From assembly GCA_026014495.1 (NCBI GenBank), contig JAOZIF010000074.1, positions 1-20,087 on the forward strand: a stretch of DNA of 20,087 bases, in the 5' to 3' direction. Made by a program: the position numbers and the translations under genes. A model generated the notes under the pieces. It saw only the letters and a list, made by a program, of their open reading frames with translations. It searched no databases and was not told where the DNA came from. Each line of letters starts with the position of its first letter. Positions within the stretch are counted from its first letter, which is position 1. This document shows positions 5,616-20,087 of this stretch, in pieces. This DNA comes from Candidatus Bathyarchaeum sp. (GTDB lineage Archaea > Thermoproteota > Bathyarchaeia > Bathyarchaeales > Bathyarchaeaceae).

Positions 5616-6137
5616 GTGAATGCTTTACGTGAAGAAATTAGGTACACTCTCCCAAAATTAATTGCGAATGTGGCGATTGCTCTTGCTTTTGTAGGGATGA
5701 GTTATGCCGTCCTATGGACGCTAACCAGTATCAGCAGCGAAATCGCGTATCTATTACAGATAGGATTATTGCTTGCAGCTGGAATCTTTCTAGCACGCAC
5801 CCTGTTTGATGCCTTAAGAATCGTCGATAATGTAACAGGAATTTTTGTTAGACTTGTTGGCATCAAAGATGGATTATCTAGACAGCGAGTCTTCAAAGAC
5901 ACCATGTACATAGTTGCCATTCTTTTGGTGACCGCTGCAGTATTTCCTGTTTTTAGTAACATGTCATCTTTTGGTTCAGTGTTGCAGGAAATCAGTACGT
6001 ATGCTGCTTTGGGTCTGATTTTGTTGTTCGTGTATGATATTGGACGAACTTTCTACAAAATTACCGAAAAAAAGGCTAACTCGGTTGCAAATCACTTTTC
6101 AAATTCAAGTAACGAGGAGAAGACTAATGAAAAATAG
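5616..6137 (+). CDS. Hypothetical 4-TM membrane protein, 173 aa
   Basis: Four hydrophobic helices. GTG start with AAGGA upstream. Its stop overlaps the KamA-family start by 11 nt. Confidence 0.8.
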   Translation: MNALREEIRYTLPKLIANVAIALAFVGMSYAVLWTLTSISSEIAYLLQIGLLLAAGIFLARTLFDALRIVDNVTGIFVRLVGIKDGLSRQRVFKDTMYIVAILLVTAAVFPVFSNMSSFGSVLQEISTYAALGLILLFVYDIGRTFYKITEKKANSVANHFSNSSNEEKTNEK

Positions 6138-7248
6138 TATTTGTACAGTTGAACAGCTCAAAGGCTTCATTGACCTGTCAGCTACAGAAGAGAAAAAATT
6201 GAGGCAGATTGTCAAAAATCATCCGATGCGTGTTACTCCATATTACATGTCGCTGATAGACTGGGACAATCCTGATGATCCTATACGAAAGATGGCGATT
6301 CCATCAATTGAAGAATTTAATCAACAGGGCGACTATGACACAAGTGGTGAAGCAGAAAACACCAAAATGTCTGGTCTTCAATACAAATACCAAGAGACAG
6401 CCCTGATATTAGCCACCAACAAGTGTGCAATGTATTGCAGGCACTGCTTTAGAAAGAGGTTGGTTGGCTTACAAACCAAGGAAATACTTGAACGCTTCGA
6501 AGATGCTGCAGATTACATAAAGCAACATGAACACATCAATAATGTTTTAGTCACTGGTGGTGACCCCCTTGTGCTCGAAAACGAAGTTATCGAAAAGCTT
6601 CTTTTGATTTTATCTGAAATTCCACAAATAAAGTTTATACGATTTGGTAGCAGGGCGCCAGTAACTTTTCCGTCACGGTTCAATGATGAGGAGCTTCTAC
6701 GAATTTTATCAAAGTATTCGCATCCAGACAGACGAATATACGTTGTCACCCAGTTTAACCATCCAAAAGAGATAACCAAACAGTCCATACACGCTGTAGA
6801 TAACCTGATAAAATCAGGCATTATAGTGAACAATCAAACAGTCTTACTAAAAAGCGTAAATGACAACGCTACAACTTTAGTTAATCTACTAAACAGACTT
6901 GTAAGTATTGGCGCAAACCCATACTATGTTTTCCAATGTAGACCAGTCAAGAGCGTGAAAAACAATTTCCAAGTGCCACTTTGCAGGGGAATAGACATTA
7001 TAGAAAAAGCAAAGGCACACTGTAACGGTCACAGTAAACGATTTAGATACATTATGTCACATAGAACGGGCAAAATAGAAGTACTTGGCGTATTCGACGA
7101 TGAGATATACTTCAAGTATCACCAAGCAAAAAACAGGAAAAGACTAGGCAAAATCTTCAAACACCCAGTTGATGAAACTGCTGGATGGCTCGACGATTTT
7201 GAGTCAACATCAATGCAAATGCTGGATGCAGTTCCCTATCCTTTGTAG
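6127..7248 (+). CDS. KamA-family (lysine 2,3-aminomutase-like) radical SAM/PLP enzyme, substrate uncertain, 373 aa
   Basis: PMRVTPYY..LIDW..P.DPIR, CAMYCRHCFRKR (C100/C104/C107), TGGDPL, RFGSR, NQTVLL, PYY..QC, GK (K316, PLP lysine). Start moved from 6034 to ATG 6127, which has GAGGAG upstream and matches the family length. Confidence 0.92.
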   Translation: MKNSICTVEQLKGFIDLSATEEKKLRQIVKNHPMRVTPYYMSLIDWDNPDDPIRKMAIPSIEEFNQQGDYDTSGEAENTKMSGLQYKYQETALILATNKCAMYCRHCFRKRLVGLQTKEILERFEDAADYIKQHEHINNVLVTGGDPLVLENEVIEKLLLILSEIPQIKFIRFGSRAPVTFPSRFNDEELLRILSKYSHPDRRIYVVTQFNHPKEITKQSIHAVDNLIKSGIIVNNQTVLLKSVNDNATTLVNLLNRLVSIGANPYYVFQCRPVKSVKNNFQVPLCRGIDIIEKAKAHCNGHSKRFRYIMSHRTGKIEVLGVFDDEIYFKYHQAKNRKRLGKIFKHPVDETAGWLDDFESTSMQMLDAVPYPL

Positions 7249-7568
7249 TATGTATCTTCGGTAACCGGATATATCTCCAGCGCCTTCACTGGACCATCTA
7301 GCACATGTGCAGTGTGCCGAACATTAGCCGGAACAAACATGCTGTCTTTTGAGGTCATAACAATTTTTTTGTCTTCAAAGATGAACTCCATTTTTCCCTC
7401 CAGAACAACAACAAGATGCTCTACTGGATGCGTGTGAAAAGGAATGTGCACGTCTTGGTTTTTCAACTCAAAGTAGTTGAGCGTTAACTCATTTCCGTGG
7501 ATAAGCCTTACGAGAACATCTTTGTACAGTTCTTTATGCAATAATGAATCTAATTGGAAAGATGACAT
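7236..7568 (-). CDS. Cupin domain protein, 110 aa
   Basis: Cupin motif 1 HTHPVEH..VVLEG.M and motif 2 SMFVPANVRH. ATG 7568 is preferred over GTG 7577 because AGGGTG lies upstream. Convergent 13-nt overlap with the KamA-family gene. Confidence 0.85.
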   Translation of the reverse strand: MSSFQLDSLLHKELYKDVLVRLIHGNELTLNYFELKNQDVHIPFHTHPVEHLVVVLEGKMEFIFEDKKIVMTSKDSMFVPANVRHTAHVLDGPVKALEIYPVTEDTYYKG

Positions 7569-7770
7569 GCAACACACCCTACAGTTTCTGATATGCTAAA
7601 GGAGCTGCTAACTTTATGTAGGTTGTGTCCCTGTGTGCACCAGTTTATTCGAGAGTTTTGCGTGTCTAATGTTAGATGTTTGCTTGTTTGCACATTTTTT
7701 TGGAAAGGTTTATCTTGCCTGAAGATTGGTTTTCCCATACACAACGCATCTGCAAAAAAACGTGACCAAC

Positions 7771-10369: not shown

Positions 10370-11599
10370 CTAGATGTTGTTCATCGCCTTGAGATAGTCT
10401 ACTTCTTCAGGCTCTAGTTTAAGCCAAGAAGGTATTTGACTTGTTTTTTGTTTCTCTAAAATAATCTTGAGGAACGGGACAATATCTGTTTTAGCGGTAG
10501 TCTGTGAAACGTGACAATTCCGAGCTATTTTTGCGCAAATATTATTCAGTTTTGTTCTTTTGCCTTTGGTCCAAAACAACTTCATTATGCGCATTGGTGG
10601 GAATATGACTTCAAATGGTTTAAACGACTCTGGAGAAACCGTTCCAGCCTCGGCAATATAGTTAAAAAAGTACTTCAAAAGGCGCCAGTTTTCTGTTCCC
10701 ACTCTGCCTCTAAACAAATCTGCCCTTGAAACAAAATCGTACGCCTTTGCCAAATCCTCTGGGTCAGGGTATCTGAGTGGAAGATTGTCACTGATTGAAA
10801 GCATGAAATCGTCATAGTTGACGTTTGAACGGTTAAGAATCATTGCTGCTTCTCCAACAGATTGCGCCGAAAACACTCCCATAAGCGTTTCATACATGCC
10901 GATATCTTTGCTTCTTAAACTTAGAAACATGGTGTCTTGAACGGTTAGAACTGCTTTTCCTTCAGAACTGCTTTGCAGATCATTTATTGCAGACCGCATG
11001 TCGCCTCGGCTGTTCTGTGCAATTCTTTCAAGGGCTTCAAATTCGGCTTTAATGTTTTCTAGGGCACAAATTTTTTGTAAAGTAATTATTATCAAAGGTA
11101 TGCGTACTGGATGAAACCGTATCATCTGGCAGACTTTTTTTAGTGGTCTAAGTTTTTTTATGTCTGTGTTGTTGGCAGCCATTACAACGGGAATGAGCGA
11201 CTCTTTGACGATGTTGATTATGGCTTTTATTCCGCCTCTGTCCTGTTGACCAAAAACTCCGTCAACCTCATCCAAGAACAGTATGTTGCCCTTGGTGTTA
11301 GCAGTGAACGTGTCCAAGGCAACGAAAGATGTGGCTGGTTTGCCTACCTTGTTGATTGCCTTTTCTGTTCGAGTGTCGCTTGCGTTCATTTCAATAATTG
11401 TAAAGTTAAACTGGTTTGAGGCTGCGTTCACCATCGCAGTTTTTCCTACACCTGCGGGTCCATAAAGTAGCACTGCCTTTTTTCGTCGCCGTTTGTTTGT
11501 TAACCAGTTAACGAACGTGGTTTTTGCTAGTTCGTTGCCTACTACGTCTGAAATCTTTTTTGGGCGATACTTTTCAACCCATAAAAGATCGTTATTCAC
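10370..11599 (-). CDS. rfcL: Replication factor C large subunit
   Basis: WVEKYRP, Walker A GPAGVGKT, EMNASD.R, Walker B FLDEVDG, sensor GDMRSAINDLQ. Directly downstream of rfcS. Confidence 0.95.
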   Translation of the reverse strand: MNNDLLWVEKYRPKKISDVVGNELAKTTFVNWLTNKRRRKKAVLLYGPAGVGKTAMVNAASNQFNFTIIEMNASDTRTEKAINKVGKPATSFVALDTFTANTKGNILFLDEVDGVFGQQDRGGIKAIINIVKESLIPVVMAANNTDIKKLRPLKKVCQMIRFHPVRIPLIIITLQKICALENIKAEFEALERIAQNSRGDMRSAINDLQSSSEGKAVLTVQDTMFLSLRSKDIGMYETLMGVFSAQSVGEAAMILNRSNVNYDDFMLSISDNLPLRYPDPEDLAKAYDFVSRADLFRGRVGTENWRLLKYFFNYIAEAGTVSPESFKPFEVIFPPMRIMKLFWTKGKRTKLNNICAKIARNCHVSQTTAKTDIVPFLKIILEKQKTSQIPSWLKLEPEEVDYLKAMNNI

Positions 11600-11613
11600 T
11601 TATGTTCCCCTTT

Positions 11614-12591
11614 TTATTTTCCAAACTTTGAGAACTGAGCAAGTAATGCACTTAATTGGATGTCGCTGTTTGCGCCTTGCGTAAGCCTGTAGTCGTATTC
11701 TCCTATGATGTTTGTTAGTTCAGCCTTTTCGGTGTCAGATAAGTATGCAACTTTGAGTAATTCGCGCTGCATCTGGCGCACTATTTCTGAACCAGAAAAA
11801 CCATACTGCCCAATTAGGTCGTACATCAGTTTTCTTGCTTCTACAAAGTTGCCATTAAGCGCCTTGTTAAGCATTGCCTGTACTTGTCTGGGGCTTGCTT
11901 CACCAAACACTTGAAGAACTGTTTGCTCATCTATGACACCTGTTTGGTATGCAGCGGCGGTTTGCAGCGAATTTATTGCGTGTCGGAGGTCGCCTTCAGA
12001 GTATTCTACGATTCTTTCTGCTGCCTCTTCTAACAGCTGTATATCTTCTTTATCGGCAATCTTTTTGAGATGCTCTATCATGGCAATCTTGTCTAGTTTT
12101 GAGAATCTGAATATAGCACAACGGCTCTGAATTGGCTCAATAATTTTGCTCGAGTAATTACATATTAGAATAAATCTGCTGGTTCGAGAACTGGTTTCCA
12201 TTATTCTTCTGAGAGCTGTTTGGGCAGGTCCGGTCATTTGGTCGCTTTCATCTAGTATTATGAGAGAGTAAGGTGCGTCTCCAAAGCCTGTTCTGCCGTA
12301 GCGGGAGAAGTCTTTAATCCTGTCCCTTACGGTGTTGATTCCTCTTTCATCAGACGCGTTAAGCTCTAAGGTAAAAGATTTCCATTTATCTCCAAACAAT
12401 TCGCGTGCAATACATAAGGCAACTGTTGTTTTTCCTGTGCCTGGTATTCCAGCTAAAAGCAGATGTGGCATTGACTGTGGATTTTTAAGGAAAGCTTGGA
12501 GGCTTTCTACAACATGGTGTAGGTCCACAATTTCGTCTAGTGTTTTTGGTCGATACTTTTCAACCCACATAACTTCATCATTAAGCTTCAT
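11614..12591 (-). CDS. rfcS: Replication factor C small subunit, no intein
   Basis: WVEKYRP, PHLLLAGIPGTGKT, LELNASDERG, ILDESD, ALRRIME, IIEPIQSRC (SRC motif), GDLRHAIN. Confidence 0.97.
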   Translation of the reverse strand: MKLNDEVMWVEKYRPKTLDEIVDLHHVVESLQAFLKNPQSMPHLLLAGIPGTGKTTVALCIARELFGDKWKSFTLELNASDERGINTVRDRIKDFSRYGRTGFGDAPYSLIILDESDQMTGPAQTALRRIMETSSRTSRFILICNYSSKIIEPIQSRCAIFRFSKLDKIAMIEHLKKIADKEDIQLLEEAAERIVEYSEGDLRHAINSLQTAAAYQTGVIDEQTVLQVFGEASPRQVQAMLNKALNGNFVEARKLMYDLIGQYGFSGSEIVRQMQRELLKVAYLSDTEKAELTNIIGEYDYRLTQGANSDIQLSALLAQFSKFGK

Positions 12592-12770
12592 AACTAATGC
12601 TCCCGTAACCGTGTGACAAGTAACGTGTTAAGTTCCACTAATTTATTTTGCTATATGCCTTTATAACTGGAACAGAGCCCTGCACATCTGCCGAGCGATA
12701 TTTTGGATTTACATTTGTAATTCACAATACATATAACCAAATTCTGGCAAAAGGAAAACGGGGACACCCC

Positions 12771-13265
12771 ATGGCATATGATGCAATAAAAAAAGCTAAA
12801 GCACTACTGGTTCAAAAGGAGAACCTTGAAAAAGTTAAGTCACTGATTCTCCGAAAGGAACTCTTTGAAAGCACTAAACCAGTTTCTTTTCAAACAGAAC
12901 ACGTTGACAAACCTAAACCAGCCTCTATCCGAAATGAACATGTTGAAAACTCAGAAAAATCAAAGTTGATGATATGCATTGAAGTTCTTTGCACCTTGGT
13001 TTCTAGCGGTCCTATGACCATGACCCAACTGTTGAATAGGTTTGAAATGGATGAGTGTCGTTTGGAGCCTCATGTAAGGCTATTGTGGAATCGGGGTCTT
13101 ATTGAGGAAGAAACTTTTGACAATGACACAGCCTATTATGTTGTAACCGAAAGAGGCCTAACAGTGCTTAAGGTTGTTAGCCCGCTGATTAGAGAGGCAC
13201 ACAAGATTCAGATACGTGACCTTGAATTGATTTCAAGCACACTTTCAGGGGCAGGTTATTCATAG
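12771..13265 (+). CDS. Winged helix-turn-helix protein, probable regulator, with an N-terminal low-complexity extension, 164 aa
   Basis: C-terminal 'IEVL..L...GPMTMTQL......L..HV..L..RGLIEE......YVVTERG..VL' wHTH pattern. Start taken at ATG 12771, with ATATAA about 35 nt upstream. Confidence 0.78.
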   Translation: MAYDAIKKAKALLVQKENLEKVKSLILRKELFESTKPVSFQTEHVDKPKPASIRNEHVENSEKSKLMICIEVLCTLVSSGPMTMTQLLNRFEMDECRLEPHVRLLWNRGLIEEETFDNDTAYYVVTERGLTVLKVVSPLIREAHKIQIRDLELISSTLSGAGYS

Positions 13266-13291
13266 AGTAGGTATTCACAGACTGCTCGTTT

Positions 13292-13317
13292 ACTGGACGC
13301 TTCCAGTTCTTTTTCTT
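13292..13317 (+). terminator. Hairpin plus T-rich tract after the wHTH gene
   Basis: ACTGGA-CGCT-TCCAGT (6-bp stem, 13292-13307) followed by TCTTTTTCTT, 26 nt after the stop. Confidence 0.5.
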
Positions 13318-13380
13318 ACTAGTAGTGTAGAAGCTGGGCGCCTAAAAACAGAAACAAACAAGATGTGTGCATTTCTGTTG

Positions 13381-13947
13381 TTAGTGTTCTTTTTTGTTTT
13401 TTGAGAATCCGTAGGTTCCTAGTTTTTTGTGCAGGCTCCAGTATTCGCCTTGGTTGTATGTGAATGGGGCTGCTTTTGTGAAGTCAATGTTTCCTTTTTC
13501 GTCTAGGATTGATTGGTTGATGTGGACTTGCACAGTTTCTCCAATAAACAGGTCATGTGTGCCCAATGAAACTGTTTTTTTCAAAACGCACTCTATGTTT
13601 ACTGGGCATTCACGGATTAGTGGAGCCTTGACGTTGTCTGCTTTTTCTGGAGTTAGTTTTGTTTCAGAAAACTTGTCGATGTCTTTTCCGGATGTTATTC
13701 CACAGTAGTCTGTTTCTTGTATGATTTTGGTTGCGGGAATGTTTACAACAAATTCTTTGCTGTTTGTTATCAGTTTATGAGAGTATCGTGTTGGTCTGAC
13801 TCCTAACCCTATCATGGGCGGTTCAGAGCATACTGTTCCAGCCCATGCTAAAGTGATTATGTTAGGTTTTCCCGTGGAATCTATGCAGGTTACAAGAACA
13901 ACTGGACAAGGAAATAGTGCAGTATACGATTTCTTTGTGATTTTCAT
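13381..13947 (-). CDS. Flavin reductase-like FMN-binding protein (flavoredoxin, DIM6/NTAB family), 188 aa
   Basis: LFPCPVVLVT...GKPNIITLAW.G..CSEPP, EFVVNIP, CG..SG...DKF, APLIRECP..IEC, GTHDLFIGE. Start taken at ATG 13947. Confidence 0.9.
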   Translation of the reverse strand: MKITKKSYTALFPCPVVLVTCIDSTGKPNIITLAWAGTVCSEPPMIGLGVRPTRYSHKLITNSKEFVVNIPATKIIQETDYCGITSGKDIDKFSETKLTPEKADNVKAPLIRECPVNIECVLKKTVSLGTHDLFIGETVQVHINQSILDEKGNIDFTKAAPFTYNQGEYWSLHKKLGTYGFSKNKKEH

Positions 13948-14079
13948 GAACAACCGTTTTGTTGGAACTGCTATTAACACTTTCTAAGATATATGTGAAC
14001 AGATTTTGTTACATTATGAATTAGTACATTAAATTCATAACATATTTAGAATCGGAACAAGAACTAAAGCCAATAATAT

Positions 14080-15339
14080 GTGTGCGGGTCCTGTTTGAGT
14101 AAATTCACAAAAAACAATAAGGCACTTAGCCCAGTTATAGCTTCGATTATTTTAATTGCAGTTGTAGTAGCTGTCTCTGTCGCAGCAACCACATGGATGG
14201 GTTCAATGTCCCTTAACTTCATGCAGGTTGACGATTTGAGAATAACTGACAGCTCATGGGCTTCAGACATTTCCTATGTTGACTTAACCGTTAAAAATCT
14301 GGGAACAAGCTCAGCTACAATCAGCGAGGTAGAAGTAAACGACGTAACCGCCAGTGATGTATCAATTGTTTCAGGTGACTCAAAATTAGATGCTGGCGAA
14401 ACAGCAGTTCTCAGAGTAATTCAAAGCTTCACATCATCAAATAAATATGAATTCACGGTTGTCACTGCATCGGCCACAAAAATTGTATATGTTTCCACAG
14501 CTTGTTCTGGGTCTTCGGAAACATGGTACAACCCATTTTGGAGTAACAGAAAAACAGTAACAATCGACAACACCTTAAACCCAGATGATTTAACGGATTA
14601 TCAGATTCAGCTTATTGTTGAGTATGACTCGGACATGCTCGCCGATTTTTCTGACTTACGTTTCACAGCAAACGACAAGCAGACCTTAATTTCTTACTGG
14701 ATTGAAAGCTATGTCCCGTCAGACTCCGCAGTGGTATGGATTAAGGTTCCATCCATTTCTGCATCGTCCACTGAAACAATTTACATGTATTACGCAAATC
14801 CCTCAGCCACTTCAGAAAGCAGCCCTGACCAAACATTTAACCAATTTTTTAACTTTACACGAGACGGAGTAGTAAGCTATGGGGGTTCGAGTCAGGATGC
14901 GGATTCGTCACAGTGGGAAATAATTGACGATACTACCTTGAGAATGTGGGGAAACAACTGGAAAGCAATCATGAACACATTAACTGTTGCTGGCGACGGC
15001 AGCCAAGCAATCTGCTTTGATTTTAAGAGCACCGGAACTCAGGCAGAAATAAACGGAGTAGGAGTAGACACAGACAACAGCGTAAGCAATAACCTATTCT
15101 ACAGAGTATACGGAACCCAAAGCTGGGGAATTAGCGACCACTATGGATACACAGGTGCAGGAAACTGGCAGGCATACACCATAATTTTAGATAACTTCAG
15201 TGGCGACTTTAACAGAATTGTATTCGCTAACGACGCTGATAGCGTAGAAGGAAACGACGTCTGTTACCGAAACGTAAGAGTAACAAAATACACAGCCACA
15301 GCGCCCTCCACAGACGTAGGCACAGAAGAAACACTCTAA
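14080..15339 (+). CDS. Archaeal type IV pilin-like protein fused to DUF2341 and a lectin-like beta module (start uncertain: GTG 14080 or TTG 14095)
   Basis: Class III signal peptide KNNKA|LSPVIASIILIAVVVAVSVAA and a pilin globular domain. From about 14521, DUF2341-type motifs W..RK.VTI, DYQIQL, DFSDLRFT, SYWIE, VWIKVP and IYMYY.NP.A.SES. Confidence 0.85.
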   Translation: MCGSCLSKFTKNNKALSPVIASIILIAVVVAVSVAATTWMGSMSLNFMQVDDLRITDSSWASDISYVDLTVKNLGTSSATISEVEVNDVTASDVSIVSGDSKLDAGETAVLRVIQSFTSSNKYEFTVVTASATKIVYVSTACSGSSETWYNPFWSNRKTVTIDNTLNPDDLTDYQIQLIVEYDSDMLADFSDLRFTANDKQTLISYWIESYVPSDSAVVWIKVPSISASSTETIYMYYANPSATSESSPDQTFNQFFNFTRDGVVSYGGSSQDADSSQWEIIDDTTLRMWGNNWKAIMNTLTVAGDGSQAICFDFKSTGTQAEINGVGVDTDNSVSNNLFYRVYGTQSWGISDHYGYTGAGNWQAYTIILDNFSGDFNRIVFANDADSVEGNDVCYRNVRVTKYTATAPSTDVGTEETL

Positions 15340-15445
15340 CAACTACCATGTATTTGTGCCAGTTTAATTGGCAGATATAGCCCCCAAAAATGCAAAATCT
15401 CAGGTTTTTCGTCATAAAAATTTGATACAGGCAATTGAATTTAGC

Positions 15446-15453
15446 TTTTATAT
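15446..15453 (+). promoter_or_regulatory. TATA box of the gins-mcm-hel308 operon
   Basis: TTTTATAT about 55 nt upstream of the TTG at 15506, in the only sizeable gap before the three tightly packed genes. Confidence 0.5.
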
Positions 15454-15505
15454 CTGTCCGTCACATTGTTTGTGGGGCAAAACGTCTGCCCAAGGAGAAC
15501 TGGGA

Positions 15506-16081
15506 TTGTCTGCTGACCCTGCAAAATTTATTCAAGACGCTGATTTCGTCTTCGAAAATACGCCTGTTAAGGTAGTGGCAAACAGGAACAACCCAGCAAT
15601 CGAACTTCCAGGCATAAAAGTTGGACCCTTTCAAGAAGGAAAAGAGTACGAAGTCATGTATTGGGTAGCCACGGAGCTAAAAAAGGCTGGAATAGCTCGC
15701 ATCCGCATGGAAGAACCAATAGATGTGACTATGCTAAACAAGATACACTGGAAAGAACGTGTGCAGACATCACAAAAGACCACATCGCTTCCCGAGGACT
15801 TTTACCCTAAACTGCGACGTTACCTCGAAGAGCTAAATGAGCAGGCTATCAAAAAGCCAGAAAAAAGAAGCGATTATGAGAAAGCAAAAAATCTCTCCGA
15901 TGACATAACGCGGATGAGACTCAAAAAGATAGTTGCTTTAGCTTCATCTGGAAGAGACCAAACAGGTCAAATCCTGCGGAGCTTAACAAAAGAAGAAAAA
16001 TATGTGTATGAATCTTTACACAAGATTATTAACGACTGGAAAAATGGAATTCTAAAATCCAAAGGAGGCGACAGAACATGA
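15506..16081 (+). CDS. gins23: GINS complex subunit, Gins23 (B-A domain order) type, 191 aa
   Basis: N-terminal beta-rich B domain (VKVV...GPF..G..YEV..WVA..L...G), then a helical A domain (LPEDFY..LR.Y, R..KIV.LA, LT.EE). ATGA overlap with mcm. TTG start with AAGGAG upstream. Confidence 0.85.
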   Translation: MSADPAKFIQDADFVFENTPVKVVANRNNPAIELPGIKVGPFQEGKEYEVMYWVATELKKAGIARIRMEEPIDVTMLNKIHWKERVQTSQKTTSLPEDFYPKLRRYLEELNEQAIKKPEKRSDYEKAKNLSDDITRMRLKKIVALASSGRDQTGQILRSLTKEEKYVYESLHKIINDWKNGILKSKGGDRT

Positions 16082-18114
16082 CCGAGGAAGTACTAACAGC
16101 AGACCCAGAGGCGCTTTTTCTGGACTTTTTTAAAATGGACAAATACCGCGAAAGACTTTCAAGCATGGCTGTCGCTGGAAGCAAATCATTTGTTGTAGAT
16201 TTTGACGAACTGTTAGCATCAGAACCTAAACTCGCTCAGCAACTAATGGATAACCCCGACGAGTATCTCGAATACGCAAACCGAGCCGCTAAAGCTCAAC
16301 TGCAAATAGAGGAACCAGAATATGCAGAGGAGCTTGGAAGCATTACAGTGCGTTTTCGTGGACTACCCGAAACTACGCCGCTGCGAATTTTGGGCTCCAA
16401 GCATATTGGACACCTTGTGATGCTAGATGGCATTGTTGTCCGTGCCAGTCCCGCCCGACCTATGGTTATGGAAGCTGCATTCAAGTGTAAATGGTGTGGT
16501 GCTATGTCTCATGTTAGTCAGTCAGGTCCGTTTCTAACTGCACCGTTAGCGTGTAGTGCTCCAGAGTGTCGAAGAAAAAGTTCATTTGATTTTATTCAGG
16601 AAGAATCCACATTTATTGACTCCCAAGATGTTCGTATCCAAGAGCGTCCTGAGGATCTTCCTCCGGGTCAGCTTCCAAGGTGGCTGGACATTAAACTCCT
16701 AGAACGTGATCTTGTTGACGCTGCACGACCTGGAGATCATGTTTCAGTAGTAGGAATTACCCGTGCTGTTGCTGCACGTCTCCCAAAGGTTGGGCAGTTG
16801 CGTTCGTTTACTTTGCATCTTGACACAAACCACATAGATGTGGAAAGTAAGGAGCCTGAAAAGGTTCTTATTACGCCTGAAGAAGAAAAACAGATTCGTG
16901 ATTTGGCGAAAGACCCTACTATTCACACAAAAGTTCTTCATTCTTTAGCTCCTTCCGTTTACGGGTACGAGCACATCAAAGAAGCGATAATGTATCTTCT
17001 TTTTGGAGGAACTGGGAAACATTTCCCGGACATCACAATCAGGGGAGACTTGAACGTTTTGATGGTTGGAGACCCTGGAACCGCCAAGTCCCAGCTTCTA
17101 CAGTATGTGGCAAAAATTGCTCCTCGTGGATTGTACACGTCTGGTCGTGGAACTACTGCGGCGGGTTTGACTGCTGCGGTTCTTCGTGACAAAACTGGTG
17201 GAATGACCCTTGAAGCTGGAGCCTTGGTTTTGGCGGATAAAGGTGTAGCTGCCATAGACGAAATGGATAAGATGCGTACAGAAGACCGTGTAGCCATTCA
17301 TGAAGTCATGGAGCAGCATACTGTTTCAGTGGCTAAGGGTGGTATTGTGGCTACTTTGAATGCACGAACATCTATTCTGGCTGCGGCAAACCCCACATTG
17401 GGCAGGTATGACCCGTACAGGACTGTGGGAGAGAACATTTCGCTTCCAGTTACCATACTTTCAAGGTTCGACTTGATTTTTGTTTTAAGGGATGTGCCAG
17501 AGGCAACTAAAGATGCAAAAATGACAGATCACATTCTTGACCTTCACAGAACTGGAGTGTCTCCAACCGAAGCACCAATAGAAGGAGAGCTTTTCAGGAA
17601 GTATGTCAGTTACGCCAAAAACATAAAGCCTGTAATTACACAAGAGGCTTTGGATTGCCTCAAAGAATTCTATTTGCGTATGCGTTCAGCCAGCGAAACA
17701 GAAGGAACACCAGTGGCTATTACTGCGCGACAGTTGGAGTCGTTGGTTCGTGTGGCTGAAGCTAGGGCGCGTGTAGCTCTCAGAGACAAGGTTACGCTCG
17801 AAGATGCTGAACGAGCAATAGACATTATGAAAATTTCTCTTGAACAGGTTGGAATCGACATTTCTTCTCACCAGTTTGACATCGACATCATAATGACAGG
17901 AAAACCCAAGAGCCTGCGTGACAAGCTTTCAATAATTCTGGGAGTCATTACTACTTTGGAGAAGGAAACGGGAATGGTTGACAAGGAACGGTTGCTAGAG
18001 AAGCTTCAAGCAGAGTATGATATAATGGCTGGAGAAGCAGAGCGCCTCATTGGACAGATGCTAAAAGAGGGAACCCTTTTTGCGCCACGGGACGGTTTCC
18101 TCAAGAAGACTTGA
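16078..18114 (+). CDS. mcm: Replicative DNA helicase MCM, no intein
   Basis: C4 zinc finger CKWC...CSAPEC, Walker A GDPGTAKSQ, Walker B IDEMDK, pre-sensor-1 hairpin KGGIVATLNAR, arginine finger SRFD, C-terminal wHTH. Confidence 0.98.
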   Translation: MTEEVLTADPEALFLDFFKMDKYRERLSSMAVAGSKSFVVDFDELLASEPKLAQQLMDNPDEYLEYANRAAKAQLQIEEPEYAEELGSITVRFRGLPETTPLRILGSKHIGHLVMLDGIVVRASPARPMVMEAAFKCKWCGAMSHVSQSGPFLTAPLACSAPECRRKSSFDFIQEESTFIDSQDVRIQERPEDLPPGQLPRWLDIKLLERDLVDAARPGDHVSVVGITRAVAARLPKVGQLRSFTLHLDTNHIDVESKEPEKVLITPEEEKQIRDLAKDPTIHTKVLHSLAPSVYGYEHIKEAIMYLLFGGTGKHFPDITIRGDLNVLMVGDPGTAKSQLLQYVAKIAPRGLYTSGRGTTAAGLTAAVLRDKTGGMTLEAGALVLADKGVAAIDEMDKMRTEDRVAIHEVMEQHTVSVAKGGIVATLNARTSILAAANPTLGRYDPYRTVGENISLPVTILSRFDLIFVLRDVPEATKDAKMTDHILDLHRTGVSPTEAPIEGELFRKYVSYAKNIKPVITQEALDCLKEFYLRMRSASETEGTPVAITARQLESLVRVAEARARVALRDKVTLEDAERAIDIMKISLEQVGIDISSHQFDIDIIMTGKPKSLRDKLSIILGVITTLEKETGMVDKERLLEKLQAEYDIMAGEAERLIGQMLKEGTLFAPRDGFLKKT

Positions 18115-18131
18115 AGTAAGGGTCAACAACG

Positions 18132-20087
18132 TTGAAGATTGAAGAGCTGCAGTTACATGATTCTGTAAAACAGGTTTTAGCTGATTTAGGGCTTACTGAG
18201 TTGTATCCGCCTCAGCAGGAAGCTGTTTTAGCGGGTGCTTTGGATGGAAAGAACCTTGTTTTGGCGAGTCCCACTGCTTCAGGTAAGACTTTGGTTGCTG
18301 AACTGTGTGCACTTAAGCATGTTTTGGAGCGGGATGGCAAAGTTCTGTATTTGTCTCCGTTGCGGGCTTTAGCCAGTGAGAAGTTTGAGGAATTCGGAAA
18401 ATACACGAATATACGCAAAGCTAACGGCAGACGGGTCAGCGTGGGCGTCAGCACAGGCGACTACGACAGCAGTGACCCGTGGATGGGAAAACATGACATC
18501 ATAGTGACCACAAACGAGAAGGCAGATTCTTTGCTGCGGCACAGAGCCAAGTGGGTAAGTGATGTTTCTCTTGTGGTTGCCGATGAAGTGCATCTTCTTA
18601 ACGATGCAGACCGTGGACCAACCCTTGAAGTCGTGCTTGCGCGGCTCATGCAGGTGAATCCCGACATTCAACTTGTGGTCTTGAGTGCTACAATACAGAA
18701 TGTGGAAGAGGTTGCGGATTGGCTTAAGGCAATCTCGGTTACAACAGAATGGAGACCTGTAACCCTCAGGGAAGGCGTGATACTGCATGACGAGGTTTTG
18801 TTCAAGGACGGCGGTGCACTCAAAATAGAGAAAGCCGCTAAAGACCCAACCCTGAATTTGGCGGTTTACACAGTAAAATCTGGAAACCAAGCCTTAGCAT
18901 TTGCAGGCACCAGAAGAAACTCGATAAGTCTAGCCAAAAAAGTTGCAGCAAAAATCAAGCCTCTGCTCTCAAAGCCCATGAAACGTTCTTTAAAGCAGTT
19001 ATCTGAACAAATTCTTTCAACAGGAGAGCGAACCAGACTTGGCGAGCAACTAGCAGAAGTGGTTAGTTGCGGAGCCGCGTTTCATCATGCTGGCTTGAGT
19101 GGTGGTCACAGGAAAATAGTTGAGGATGCGTTTAAGGCAGGAAAAATCAAGGTTCTAACCGCCACGCCAACATTAGCGTTTGGGATGAATCTTCCAGCAA
19201 GAATAGTAATAATCAACGAATACAGAAGATACGAATCTAGTTACGGCTACTATCCGATTCCTGTTCTTGAGTATAAACAGATGGCTGGGCGTGCGGGAAG
19301 ACCACGATACGACAAGTTTGGGGACTCGATACTGGTAGCCAAAACTGAAGATGAACGCGAGTATCTTATGGAAAGCTACATTTTGGCTGAAACCGAAAAA
19401 ATATGGTCTAAACTTGCGGTGGAACGTATACTTCGGTCTCATGTTTTAGCTACGGTTGCGTCGGATTTTGCTCATACAGAGCAGGGAATCTACGAGTTTT
19501 TTGGCAAGACATTTTATGCTTACCAGTATGACCCCCGGGCGATAAAGGGAGTTATCCAAAAAAGTTTGGGCTTTTTGTTCACAGAAAAAATGATTGAATA
19601 TGTTGGCGACAAGATTTATGCCACCAAATTTGGACGAAGAGTCTCCGAACTATACCTTGACCCCCTCACGGGAGTTACAATAAGAGATGCCCTTACAAAC
19701 CGTGCACAACACGTCACTGACGTTAGTTTTCTTCACATGATTGCCCGCACCCCAGACATGTACCCTAAGCTTCGCCCTTACGCAAACGAGATGGATACTC
19801 TCCAGTTTTTTATTGAAGACCACAAAGACGAGTTCATGTTTGAGCTTCCTGACCCATGGATGGACAGGCTAGCTTTTGAAAACTTTCTTGGAGAAGCAAA
19901 ACTCTCGTTAGTGCTCAAGTCTTGGATGAACGAAACAAGCGAAGACGAAATGATTGAACAATACAGAGTTCAGCCAGGAGACCTTTATCGGCTAATCTCA
20001 ACAGCCAAGTGGCTTGTTCATGCATCTAATGAGTTGGCTTCGCTTCTCAAACACAAAGACCTGTTGGCTGACCTATCGAGGCTAACA
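18132..20087 (+). CDS. hel308: Ski2-like SF2 helicase Hel308/Hjm, truncated by the window edge (652 codons visible, not in the supplied ORF track)
   Basis: Manual translation from TTG 18132 is open to the window end: MKIEEL...LYPPQQEA (Q motif), SPTASGKT, P.RALASEK, DEVH, LSAT, FHHAGL, ATPTLAFGMNLPA, QMAGRAGRP, FGRRVSELYLDP. Confidence 0.96.
   Translation, partial: MKIEELQLHDSVKQVLADLGLTELYPPQQEAVLAGALDGKNLVLASPTASGKTLVAELCALKHVLERDGKVLYLSPLRALASEKFEEFGKYTNIRKANGRRVSVGVSTGDYDSSDPWMGKHDIIVTTNEKADSLLRHRAKWVSDVSLVVADEVHLLNDADRGPTLEVVLARLMQVNPDIQLVVLSATIQNVEEVADWLKAISVTTEWRPVTLREGVILHDEVLFKDGGALKIEKAAKDPTLNLAVYTVKSGNQALAFAGTRRNSISLAKKVAAKIKPLLSKPMKRSLKQLSEQILSTGERTRLGEQLAEVVSCGAAFHHAGLSGGHRKIVEDAFKAGKIKVLTATPTLAFGMNLPARIVIINEYRRYESSYGYYPIPVLEYKQMAGRAGRPRYDKFGDSILVAKTEDEREYLMESYILAETEKIWSKLAVERILRSHVLATVASDFAHTEQGIYEFFGKTFYAYQYDPRAIKGVIQKSLGFLFTEKMIEYVGDKIYATKFGRRVSELYLDPLTGVTIRDALTNRAQHVTDVSFLHMIARTPDMYPKLRPYANEMDTLQFFIEDHKDEFMFELPDPWMDRLAFENFLGEAKLSLVLKSWMNETSEDEMIEQYRVQPGDLYRLISTAKWLVHASNELASLLKHKDLLADLSRLT

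What the first reader, a model, noticed from the sequence alone, without database searches (positions are those of the whole stretch)
6127..7248. KamA-family aminomutase whose lysine-binding Asp pair is replaced, suggesting a different (possibly acidic) substrate
Seen: intact CxxxCxxC, the Arg two residues after the last Cys (R109) and a PLP lysine (GK316). The motif PYY..QC-D of lysine 2,3-aminomutase reads PYYVFQC-R (R272), and the VVD-APGGGGK loop reads YIMS-HRTGK (S311). Established: in Clostridium subterminale LAM, D293 and D330 bind the lysine epsilon-amine, and glutamate 2,3-aminomutase replaces them with Lys and Asn. Inference: Arg/Ser here fits a carboxylate side chain (Glu, Asp or aminoadipate) rather than lysine. 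No ablB acetyltransferase or epmA lies nearby, so neither the N-acetyl-beta-lysine nor the EF-P route is suggested. Beta-glutamate is a known archaeal osmolyte. The D330 alignment needs a gap and is less certain than D293.
Basis: partly seen in the sequence, partly recalled or inferred. Interest (0 to 1): 0.7.

Follow-up and report, generated by a model that had tools for sequence, protein, structure and literature searches.

The report
Unnamed short aminomutase lacking lysine-binding residues
This archaeal gene encodes an enzyme of the lysine 2,3-aminomutase family that belongs to a large, deep, uncharacterised branch in which the lysine-binding residues are replaced, so it almost certainly shifts the amino group of some other amino acid, and glutamate is the best but unproven guess.

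Summary
ORF 6127-7248 (373 aa) has C100/C104/C107, R109, R272 in place of LAM Asp293, S311-H312 in place of Asp330-Ala331, and the PLP lysine K316.

The genome is a Bathyarchaeia genome of the genus of Ca. Bathyarchaeum tardum. The protein passes only the generic KamA subfamily model and falls far below every named equivalog: lysine, glutamate, arginine aminomutase and EpmB.

Trees place it outside the branch that holds LAM/AblA, bacterial Eam and EpmB. It sits in a separate "short R-type" branch, split with support 100. The branch's hallmarks are C..CFRKR, HKY..T, QCRP, K304, MSHxxGK-E and its own C-terminal beta domain. The motif occurs in at least 594 species genomes of anaerobic archaea and bacteria. 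All are annotated only as "KamA family" or mislabelled as lysine aminomutase.

No neighbour gene is conserved across the branch. Lineage-level neighbours are a 4-TM protein and a cupin here, and an MscS channel in a sister Bathyarchaeia lineage.

An acidic substrate (glutamate to beta-glutamate, a one-enzyme osmolyte) is the best-supported reading, but it rests on inference. By unchecked notes and my recollection, the published methanogen glutamate aminomutase is a different, long K/N-type lineage.

First-stage readers of this scan had already noted this gene pair in other genomes.

The parts
6127..7248 (+). Short R-type KamA-family radical SAM/PLP aminomutase gene (373 aa, P0001)
   Evidence: It passes TIGR00238 (250.8 vs cut-off 199.2 bits) but none of the equivalog models. 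The AF2 model has pLDDT 93.4, and the best PDB match is LAM 2A5H with TM 0.79.
6424..6453 (+). CxxxCxxC radical SAM cluster motif plus F108 and R109 (CAMYCRHCFR)
   Evidence: C100, C104, C107, F108 and R109 are invariant in 23 diverse R-type sequences. F108 replaces Thr of LAM and Gln of Eam.
6379..6399 (+). Residues 85-91 (QYKYQET) of the GLQ(H/Y)KYxxT motif. K87 and T91 stand in place of LAM Arg112 and Arg116
   Evidence: T91 is 100% conserved in core sequences and 97% across the R side, against Arg in 98% of the Asp-type side. K87 stands against Arg in 84%.
6940..6942 (+). R272 codon, on the column of LAM Asp293 (Lys in Eam)
7036..7080 (+). K304 to E318: KRFRYIMSHRTGKIE. It holds S311/H312 on the Asp330/Ala331 columns, the PLP lysine K316 and E318
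   Evidence: Profile-profile alignment, conservation table and the model, which shows a beta-hairpin of strands 307-312 and 315-323.
7087..7206 (+). C-terminal beta domain specific to the subfamily (FKYHQAK...GKIF...WLDD, invariant W354). It replaces the LAM_C domain
   Evidence: No PF12544 hit. W354 is invariant. These columns are gaps in more than 80% of Asp-type sequences. Strands 326-334 and 343-347 appear in the model.
5616..6137 (+). Upstream 173-aa 4-TM membrane protein ORF whose end overlaps the aminomutase start by 11 nt
   Evidence: The same pair is seen in L003, L004, L006, L008 and L054. Only a weak sub-threshold DUF3995 hit was found.
7236..7577 (-). Convergent cupin_2 gene whose 3' end overlaps the aminomutase 3' end by 13 nt
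   Evidence: PF07883 E=1e-12. The arrangement is conserved in L003, L004, L006, L007 and L054.

Best explanation
The gene encodes a working SAM-, [4Fe-4S]- and PLP-dependent amino-acid 2,3-aminomutase. It belongs to a deep, unnamed branch of the KamA family, called here the short R-type.

The catalytic apparatus is that of lysine 2,3-aminomutase. Three cysteines hold the cluster that cleaves SAM. K316 carries PLP. R109 holds the substrate alpha-carboxylate. The side-chain pocket is rebuilt: Arg272 and Ser311/His312 stand where LAM has Asp293 and Asp330. Lysine therefore cannot be bound the LAM way.

The most likely substrate is an acidic amino acid, with L-glutamate first, giving beta-glutamate. 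The gene has no conserved partner enzyme. Its product is therefore most likely used as such, for example as a metabolically inert compatible solute, rather than fed into a pathway.

Shown: family, fold, motifs, phylogenetic position and distribution. Inferred: that it is an aminomutase, the nature of the substrate and the physiological role.

Tiered confidence:
- aminomutase of a distinct subfamily: about 0.85
- not lysine: about 0.85
- acidic substrate: about 0.45
- glutamate as osmolyte: about 0.3-0.35
For: Family and fold:
- The KamA subfamily model is passed.
- 2A5H matches at E=7e-71 and 36% identity, and the model has TM 0.79 to it.
- The cluster cysteines, R109, GGD and K316 are invariant across 23 diverse members.

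Separate branch:
- FastTree (121 rows) and IQ-TREE PMSF (78 rows) both split R-type from LAM, Eam and EpmB with support 100.
- None of 11 R-type proteins reaches any equivalog cut-off.

Pocket:
- R272 aligns with Asp293 and S311 with Asp330.
- A PGAP-named Eam has Lys/Asn at these columns, so a cation plus a hydrogen-bond donor there has a precedent for glutamate.
- Position 272 behaves as a specificity site within the branch. Subclades with Met272 mostly have Pro311, and one of them (P0142) sits inside a Liv-type ABC amino-acid transporter operon.

Not redundant with lysine enzymes:
- 13 of 50 carrier genomes also hold an Asp/Asp-type gene, but only 1 holds a long Lys/Asn-type gene.
- Ca. B. 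tardum has two R-type genes plus one LAM-type gene.

Free amino-acid chemistry: fusions to a Ddl-like ATP-grasp, an NRPS condensation domain and an adenylation-type domain inside an NRPS cluster.

Osmolyte reading:
- It is stand-alone in 80 loci, with no catabolic partners.
- An MscS channel lies 32-80 nt (mostly about 46 nt) downstream in 7 loci of a sister Bathyarchaeia lineage. This mirrors the salt-induced mscS-kamA-ablB operon of Ca. Methanoperedens (PMC11337218).
- The distribution is patchy (8 of 151 Bathyarchaeia genomes) and crosses domains, as expected for an adaptive accessory gene.
Against: - No member of the branch has been assayed, so substrate identity rests on two or three residues.
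- S311 is Ala in three orthologues.
- E318, two residues after K316 on the same strand face, is conserved (100% of core sequences) and could pair with R272 or bind a cationic group.
- No Na+ or c-di-AMP riboswitch precedes the gene in 19 bacterial loci, although such riboswitches do precede some ablA and eam genes.
- The MscS link is a single lineage-level event.
- R-type members also occur in the gut bacterium Collinsella and in tiny DPANN and CPR genomes.
- The changes R112K and R116T alter residues that I recall as PLP-phosphate ligands in LAM. Cofactor binding may therefore differ.
Confidence: 0.4

Rival explanations
1. It is a 2,3-aminomutase for a small or neutral amino acid, for example alanine to beta-alanine, or serine or glutamine. 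In this reading Arg272, perhaps paired with Glu318, merely fills the space that the lysine chain occupies in LAM.
For: Engineered alanine 2,3-aminomutases arise from LAM by changing the Asp330-equivalent residue to Gly or His (PMC9850924). Here a His (H312) sits next to that column. E318 is conserved and stays conserved in the Met272 subclades.
Against: The genome already has an MfnA-type decarboxylase (476 bits, above its cut-off), which is the usual archaeal beta-alanine source. No archaeal phosphopantothenate synthetase was found, so there is no missing-gene argument. An invariant Arg is an unusual way to make a small neutral pocket.
Confidence: 0.15
2. It is a 2,3-aminomutase for another anionic amino acid, such as 2-aminoadipate, aspartate, O-phosphoserine or cysteate, rather than glutamate.
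For: The evidence is the same cationic pocket. The segment 304-313 is unusually basic, with K304, R305, R307, H312 and R313. This could suit a di-anionic or phosphorylated side chain.
Against: Moving the amine of aspartate from C2 to C3 regenerates aspartate, so that reaction is pointless. No linked aminoadipate, LysW or phosphoserine genes appear in 80 loci. The basic residues may simply replace the lost Arg116 at the PLP phosphate.
Confidence: 0.15
3. It is still a lysine or other basic amino-acid aminomutase, for example for ornithine or arginine. In this reading it binds the cationic side chain through different acidic residues, such as E318, D187 or E119.
For: E318, D187 and E119 are 99-100% conserved in the core clade and absent from LAM. 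The arginine-aminomutase model gives the second-best score and the longest alignment.
Against: An invariant Arg sits on the Asp293 column next to the substrate channel. R-type genes coexist with true Asp/Asp genes in 13 of 50 genomes. All scores are less than half of the equivalog cut-offs. No AblB or EpmA is present.
Confidence: 0.07
4. It is not an aminomutase. It would be a KamA-fold radical SAM enzyme that uses PLP, or K316, for different chemistry or on a non-amino-acid substrate.
For: There are about ten family-wide active-site differences, including loss of Arg112 and Arg116 and a shortened loop before the PLP lysine. The branch is deep and has no characterised member.
Against: All characterised KamA-family enzymes are 2,3-aminomutases (my knowledge). 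K316, R109 and the SAM-binding motifs are invariant. Fusions to amino-acid ligases and NRPS domains fit production of a beta-amino acid.
Confidence: 0.1

Closest known systems
Lysine 2,3-aminomutase (KamA of Clostridium subterminale, PDB 2A5H; AblA of methanogens; NCBIfam TIGR03820)
   Same: It shares the same fold (TM 0.79, 36% identity), the CxxxCxxC cluster, the carboxylate-binding Arg two residues after the last Cys, GGD, and a PLP lysine after a Gly. The radical 1,2-amino shift is presumably the same.
   Different: - Asp293 becomes Arg and Asp330 becomes Ser(-His).
- Arg112 becomes Lys and Arg116 becomes Thr.
- Thr133 becomes Phe and Pro325 becomes Lys.
- The loop before the PLP lysine is 2 residues shorter.
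- There is no LAM_C domain. There are no Cys at the positions I recall as the LAM zinc ligands (Cys268 is Asn247 here, and there is no C-terminal CxCxxC).
- It scores 262.8 vs cut-off 525.4.
- It lies on the other side of a split with support 100.
- It has no AblB partner.
Bacterial glutamate 2,3-aminomutase (Eam, Clostridioides difficile type; NCBIfam TIGR04368; represented here by the PGAP-named P0183 cluster)
   Same: It is a KamA-family enzyme in which the Asp pair is replaced by a cationic residue plus a polar residue. This is the logic behind the glutamate prediction.
   Different: Eam has Lys/Asn, a C..CQRRR motif, a roughly 60-aa N-terminal extension and the long Gly-rich loop. It nests inside the Asp-type side of the tree. 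The query has Arg/Ser-His and C..CFRKR, has no extension, and scores 271.5 vs cut-off 650.
Methanogen glutamate 2,3-aminomutase (Methanococcus maripaludis C7; Tunckanat et al., Biochemistry 2022, 61:1077; paper not held here)
   Same: It is an archaeal stand-alone radical SAM aminomutase that makes the osmolyte beta-glutamate. That is the physiological role proposed here.
   Different: By my recollection and by unchecked notes of other agents, it is a long form with an N-terminal extension of about 160 aa or more and the Lys/Asn signature. One such long form was seen here in a Desulfobulbaceae genome: 652 aa, with CQRNW, NMK and FNVPKLGK. I could not fetch the methanogen sequence itself to place it on the tree.
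EpmB (YjeK) of E. coli, EF-P beta-lysylation
   Same: It is a short KamA-family protein without the LAM_C domain.
   Different: EpmB keeps the Asp293-column Asp and groups with the Asp-type side. It needs EpmA and EF-P, which archaea lack. The query scores 196.8 vs cut-off 369.3.

Membership tests
KamA family radical SAM proteins (TIGR00238) | Score over the curated subfamily cut-off | tested here: met
   250.8 bits vs cut-off 199.2.
KamA family radical SAM proteins (TIGR00238) | CxxxCxxC cluster motif, Arg two residues after the last Cys, and a PLP-binding Lys preceded by Gly | tested here: met
   C100/C104/C107, R109 and G315-K316. All are invariant or nearly so in 23 diverse relatives. K316 aligns with the LAM PLP lysine.
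KamA family radical SAM proteins (TIGR00238) | LAM-like three-dimensional fold | tested here: met
   The AF2 model has pLDDT 93.4. 2A5H is by far the best PDB match (E=8e-32, TM 0.79/0.72), and the next hits have E about 1e-7.
Lysine 2,3-aminomutase KamA/AblA (TIGR03820) | Equivalog score cut-off | tested here: not met
   262.8 vs 525.4 bits.
Lysine 2,3-aminomutase KamA/AblA (TIGR03820) | Asp293 and Asp330 that bind the lysine epsilon-ammonium | tested here: not met
   Arg272 and Ser311 occupy these columns.
Lysine 2,3-aminomutase KamA/AblA (TIGR03820) | C-terminal LAM_C domain (PF12544) | tested here: not met
   No PF12544 hit. LAM-type relatives do have it.
Lysine 2,3-aminomutase KamA/AblA (TIGR03820) | Groups with LAM/AblA in a family tree | tested here: not met
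   It lies on the opposite side of a split with support 100 in two trees.
Lysine 2,3-aminomutase KamA/AblA (TIGR03820) | AblB acetyltransferase partner (osmolyte route) | tested here: not met
   No TIGR03827 match in the 93%-complete genome. No GNAT gene lies in the window.
Glutamate 2,3-aminomutase Eam (TIGR04368) | Equivalog score cut-off | tested here: not met
   271.5 vs 650 bits.
Glutamate 2,3-aminomutase Eam (TIGR04368) | Lys and Asn at the Asp293 and Asp330 columns | tested here: not met
   The query has Arg and Ser. PGAP-named Eam P0183 has Lys and Asn.
Glutamate 2,3-aminomutase Eam (TIGR04368) | Converts L-glutamate to beta-glutamate | not testable with these tools
   This needs an anaerobic enzyme assay.
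EpmB (TIGR03821) | Equivalog cut-off and an EpmA/EF-P partner | tested here: not met
   196.8 vs 369.3 bits. No EpmA scored above its cut-off. Archaea use aIF5A, not EF-P (established knowledge).
Arginine 2,3-aminomutase (TIGR04468) | Equivalog score cut-off | tested here: not met
   264.9 vs 600 bits.

The most novel reading that the evidence does not exclude
The short R-type branch is a third, independently evolved family of radical SAM amino-acid 2,3-aminomutases. Its side-chain specificity would be set by positions 272 and 311/312.

Its core Arg272 clade, spread across archaea and bacteria including DPANN and CPR, would be a one-enzyme beta-glutamate (or other anionic beta-amino acid) synthase. 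Its Met272/Pro311 subclades would be natural radical SAM aminomutases for hydrophobic amino acids, for example the long-sought SAM-type leucine 2,3-aminomutase.
Probability: 0.3. Interest if true: 0.75.

Novelty: new variant of a known kind. Interest (0 to 1): 0.55.

Why it matters
Few substrate specificities are known for the KamA family: lysine in two stereochemical versions, glutamate and arginine. This report delineates a whole deep branch, in hundreds of species across both domains, that databases call "KamA family" or wrongly "lysine 2,3-aminomutase".

If its substrate is glutamate, that would explain how many uncultured sediment and vent anaerobes could make beta-glutamate. These include Bathyarchaeia, ANME-1, Asgard archaea, DPANN, Cloacimonadota and Desulfurobacteriaceae. 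It would also be a case of convergent pocket design, Arg/Ser-His against Lys/Asn.

If the substrate is something else, it adds a new beta-amino acid to microbial metabolism and a new scaffold for biocatalysis.

Either way, genome-based claims that these organisms make beta-lysine or N-acetyl-beta-lysine from this gene are unsafe.

Tried and rejected
- **Beta-alanine supply.** The genome has an MfnA-type decarboxylase above its cut-off, no PanD and no detectable archaeal phosphopantothenate synthetase. There is no gap for the enzyme to fill.
- **Conserved partner genes.** BLAST clustering of the neighbours of 80 loci found no family shared beyond single lineages. In Cloacimonadota the gene lies between purD and purN. 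In Desulfurobacteriaceae it lies between a nitroreductase-domain gene and folK. Both look like plain synteny.
- **Osmolyte-type riboswitches.** None was found in 19 bacterial loci. The only hits were an unrelated yjdF riboswitch and tRNAs.
- **Covariation of positions 272 and 311 on the tree.** At most 4 independent pairs exist, so it cannot be tested.
- **Link to organisms known to accumulate beta-glutamate.** Named cultured carriers are Thermovibrio ammonificans, Desulfurobacterium spp. and Collinsella tanakaei (a more distant member). I know of no osmolyte data for them.
- **Key papers.** Ruzicka and Frey 2007 and Tunckanat et al. 2022 are not held. Statements about them rest on my memory and on citing papers.
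- **Residue-level superposition on 2A5H.** Model coordinates are not returned, so it could not be done.
- **Contexts of further Met272 members.** The contigs were too short.
- **ESM Atlas.** It returned only generic KamA clusters.
Full report
**What is there**

The window is a Bathyarchaeia contig carrying housekeeping genes: thiL, two Nudix genes, moaA, htrA, RFC large and small subunits, GINS, MCM and Hel308. The closest named relatives are Candidatus Bathyarchaeota/Bathyarchaeia MAGs. A same-genus genome, G090, matches in size and coordinates the complete genome of Ca. Bathyarchaeum tardum CP122380.

ORF 6127-7248 (+) gives a 373-aa protein, P0001. The start at 6127 has a GAGGAG site 8 nt upstream and matches the 373-aa length of over 100 homologues at 74-88% identity.

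- C100, C104, C107 and R109
- P265-YYVFQC-R272
- Y308-IMSHRTG-K316

**Family and fold**

Pfam sees only the Radical_SAM domain and no LAM_C. NCBIfam places the protein over the generic KamA subfamily cut-off (250.8 vs 199.2 bits). It falls far under every functional equivalog:

| Model | Score (bits) | Cut-off (bits) |
|---|---|---|
| Glutamate 2,3-aminomutase | 271.5 | 650 |
| Arginine 2,3-aminomutase | 264.9 | 600 |
| Lysine 2,3-aminomutase | 262.8 | 525.4 |
| EpmB | 196.8 | 369.3 |

The only solved relative is Clostridium subterminale LAM, 2A5H (E=7e-71). An AlphaFold2 model built on 23 relatives is confident (pLDDT 93.4, pTM 0.91). It matches 2A5H far better than any other PDB chain (TM 0.79/0.72, 36% identity; next hits E about 1e-7).

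**The two Asp positions**

The phmmer alignment to 2A5H has no gap between LAM residues 226 and 293, so R272 is the Asp293 equivalent.

For Asp330 I compared a profile of 23 R-type sequences with a profile of 17 LAM/Eam-type sequences (hhalign, probability 100). S311 falls on the Asp330 column and H312 on Ala331. Two residues of the Gly-rich loop are deleted, and G315-K316 fall on the Gly-Lys of the PLP site. A plain MAFFT alignment shifts this loop by one residue, so this equivalence is probable, not certain.

A cluster that PGAP names glutamate 2,3-aminomutase (P0183, Lacrimispora) carries Lys and Asn at these columns.

**A separate, deep subfamily**

A full HMMER scan of 1.8 billion representatives gave 4663 relatives. 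Those that align over the whole length share a distinctive set of features. Conservation counts on 80 close and 34 distant R-type sequences against 45 Asp-type sequences show family-wide differences:

| Query residue | R-type | Asp-type / LAM |
|---|---|---|
| Q85 | Gln | Thr or Val |
| K87 | Lys | LAM Arg112 |
| T91 | Thr | LAM Arg116, Arg in 98% |
| F108 | Phe | LAM Thr133; Gln in Eam |
| R272-P273 | Arg-Pro | Asp293 |
| K304 | Lys | Pro in 100% |
| M310-S311-H312 | Met-Ser-His | Asp330 region |
| E318 | Glu | Pro |

The branch also has its own C-terminal beta domain with an invariant Trp354.

A FastTree of 121 sequences and an IQ-TREE (LG+C20 PMSF) tree of 78 sequences both split the family in two, with support 100:
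- One side holds a PGAP-named LAM (P0165), the Bathyarchaeia LAM-type genes, the three Eam-type sequences and E. coli EpmB.
- The other side holds only "C..CFRKR" sequences, including the query.

None of ten further R-type representatives reaches any equivalog cut-off.

**Distribution**

A scan of one genome per species found the P[YH]Y.F[QHL]CRP motif in at least 594 genomes. The 80 best (53-78% identical) span:
- Archaea: Bathyarchaeia, Methanothrix, ANME-1, Methanolliviera, Thermoplasmata, Asgard archaea and four DPANN phyla.
- Bacteria: Cloacimonadota, Desulfurobacteriaceae/Thermovibrio, Thermodesulfatator, WOR-3, Fusibacter, Desulfobulbaceae, Planctomycetes, Spirochaetales and a CPR genome.

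Archaeal and bacterial sequences interleave on short branches, which suggests transfer between domains.

Within Bathyarchaeia the gene is patchy. It occurs in 8 of 151 sampled genomes, all in the window's own order. Another 6 genomes have a LAM-type gene and 12 have a short Asp/Asp type with FQMDLV.

Cultured carriers include Thermovibrio ammonificans and Desulfurobacterium species. All are annotated only as "KamA family radical SAM protein" or as lysine 2,3-aminomutase.

**Surroundings**

In the window's lineage three genes travel together:
- a 160-195-aa 4-TM protein whose gene overlaps or directly abuts the aminomutase start (11-nt overlap in the window)
- the aminomutase
- a convergent cupin gene overlapping its end by 13 nt

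In a sister Bathyarchaeia lineage (7 loci) an MscS mechanosensitive channel gene follows 32-80 nt downstream, about 46 nt in most. Elsewhere the neighbours differ. No family is shared across lineages, and no aminotransferase, BKACE, acetyltransferase or other beta-amino-acid enzyme recurs.

The genome has this single KamA-family gene, no AblB and no EpmA.

**What it most likely does**

The invariant cluster cysteines, R109, GGD and K316, together with the LAM fold, argue for the LAM mechanism. SAM is cleaved at the cluster. The 5'-deoxyadenosyl radical abstracts a C3 hydrogen from the substrate-PLP aldimine, and the amine migrates through an azacyclopropylcarbinyl radical. This mechanism is established for LAM and inferred here.

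Lysine is excluded as it is bound in LAM, because an Arg stands on the Asp293 column. Four observations bear on the substrate:

1. Eam shows that a cation plus a polar residue at these two columns goes with glutamate.
2. Inside the R-type branch, position 272 varies together with the loop. Arg272 goes with Ser/Ala311-His312. Met272 goes with Pro311 in five of six cases. One Met272 member lies inside a Liv-type ABC amino-acid uptake operon, with two ATPases, a Peripla_BP_6 binding protein and two permeases. This fits 272 being a side-chain specificity site, hydrophobic there and anion-binding here. The covariation itself cannot be tested statistically, because there are at most 4 independent pairs.
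3. R-type genes coexist with Asp/Asp-type genes in 13 of 50 carrier genomes, but with a long Lys/Asn-type gene in only one. This fits a function different from lysine aminomutase. It is compatible with overlap with glutamate aminomutase, but I have no base rate.
4. Fusions to a Ddl-like ATP-grasp, to an NRPS condensation domain, and to an adenylation-type domain within an NRPS cluster fit a free beta-amino-acid product.

A stand-alone enzyme acting on the most abundant cellular anion would give beta-glutamate. Beta-glutamate is a known, metabolically inert osmolyte of marine methanogens (PMC1224877). The MscS neighbour mirrors the salt-induced mscS-kamA-ablB operon of Ca. Methanoperedens (PMC11337218).

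I put about 0.85 on [quoted passage not shown], about 0.45 on an acidic substrate, and about 0.3-0.35 on glutamate as an osmolyte.

**Cautions**

- S311 is Ala in three Bathyarchaeia orthologues, so its hydroxyl is not essential.
- E318 lies two residues after K316 on the same strand. It is conserved even where 272 is Met. Its role could change the reading, whether as partner of R272, ligand of PLP or binder of a cation.
- I could not measure distances because model coordinates are not returned.
- No osmolyte-type riboswitch precedes the gene in 19 bacterial loci.
- The MscS link is one lineage-level event.
- A beta-alanine role was examined and dropped.

**Relation to what is known**

The enzyme works like a LAM or Eam but is a member of neither.

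The methanogen glutamate 2,3-aminomutase of Tunckanat et al. 2022 is cited, but the paper is not held. By my recollection and by unchecked notes of other agents in this scan, it is a long form with an N-terminal extension and the Lys/Asn signature. I saw one such long form here, of 652 aa, with CQRNW, NMK and FNVPKLGK. I could not fetch the published sequence to place it on the tree, and this is the main open point for novelty.

First-stage readers of this scan had already noted the same aminomutase and membrane-protein pair in several other genomes. No checked follow-up of this clade was shown.

**Verdict**

The finding is better described as an uncharacterised, deep and widespread KamA subfamily than as a LAM with two substitutions.

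Noticed in passing
window 5616-6137 (+): A 173-aa 4-TM ORF is translationally coupled to the aminomutase by an 11-nt overlap. The pair is conserved in related Bathyarchaeia (L003, L004, L006, L008, L054). In Ca. Bathyarchaeum tardum (L007) the ORF is only 96 aa, so it is truncated or frameshifted there. Only a sub-threshold DUF3995 hit was found.
   Followed up: partly
window 7236-7577 (-): A cupin_2 gene is convergent with the aminomutase and overlaps its 3' end by 13 nt. The arrangement is conserved in at least five related loci. Its function and any link to the aminomutase are unknown.
   Followed up: partly
L136:7001-8104 and L137:4988-6091 (protein P0142): An R-type subfamily member with Met272/Pro311/His312 sits inside a Liv-type ABC amino-acid transporter operon, with two ATPases, a Peripla_BP_6 binding protein and two permeases. 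It is a candidate radical SAM aminomutase for a hydrophobic amino acid.
   Followed up: partly
L135:7001-10447 (protein P0151); also P0138 and P0147: R-type aminomutase domains occur fused to an adenylation/DdaG_C plus RidA region inside an NRPS cluster, to a Ddl-like ATP-grasp next to a 7TM_transglut gene, and to an NRPS condensation domain. These suggest beta-amino acids built into secondary metabolites.
   Followed up: partly
G090 (= CP122380, Ca. Bathyarchaeum tardum): L112:3986-5104, L115:3962-5122, L098:3920-5257: The cultured relative carries two R-type genes in different contexts plus one LAM-type Asp/Asp gene. The LAM-type gene is followed by a 184-aa ORF that was not annotated here.
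   Followed up: partly
L099-L110 (Bathyarchaeia genomes G106, G050, G016 and others): A third KamA type in Bathyarchaeia is short (about 367 aa), keeps both Asp residues (FQMDLV, IDAPGGGGK) and lacks the LAM_C length. It was found in 12 of 151 sampled genomes and is unassigned.
   Followed up: no
L009-L014 and L064, gene +1 (e.g. L010:7146-8240): An MscS-family channel gene lies directly downstream of the R-type aminomutase gene, 32-80 nt away (about 46 nt in most loci), in a sister Bathyarchaeia lineage.
   Followed up: partly
L141 (GCA_975970955.1, labelled [Eubacterium] cellulosolvens): The contig carrying an R-type gene has an archaeal-looking gene set (ELP3-type radical SAM, PIN, large PQQ_2 beta-propeller proteins like those in L003). 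The organism label may reflect a mis-binned contig.
   Followed up: no
L123:581-2539 (-) (G178, Desulfobulbaceae): A 652-aa long-form KamA homologue has its Cys cluster at residue 365 and carries CQRNW, NMK and FNVPKLGK, the Lys/Asn glutamate-type signature. It coexists with an R-type gene in the same genome.
   Followed up: no
window 10370-20087: A tight run of replication genes is present: RFC large and small subunits, GINS23, MCM and a Hel308-type helicase. A DUF2341 protein with an archaellin/pilin-type N-terminal signal lies between them.
   Followed up: no
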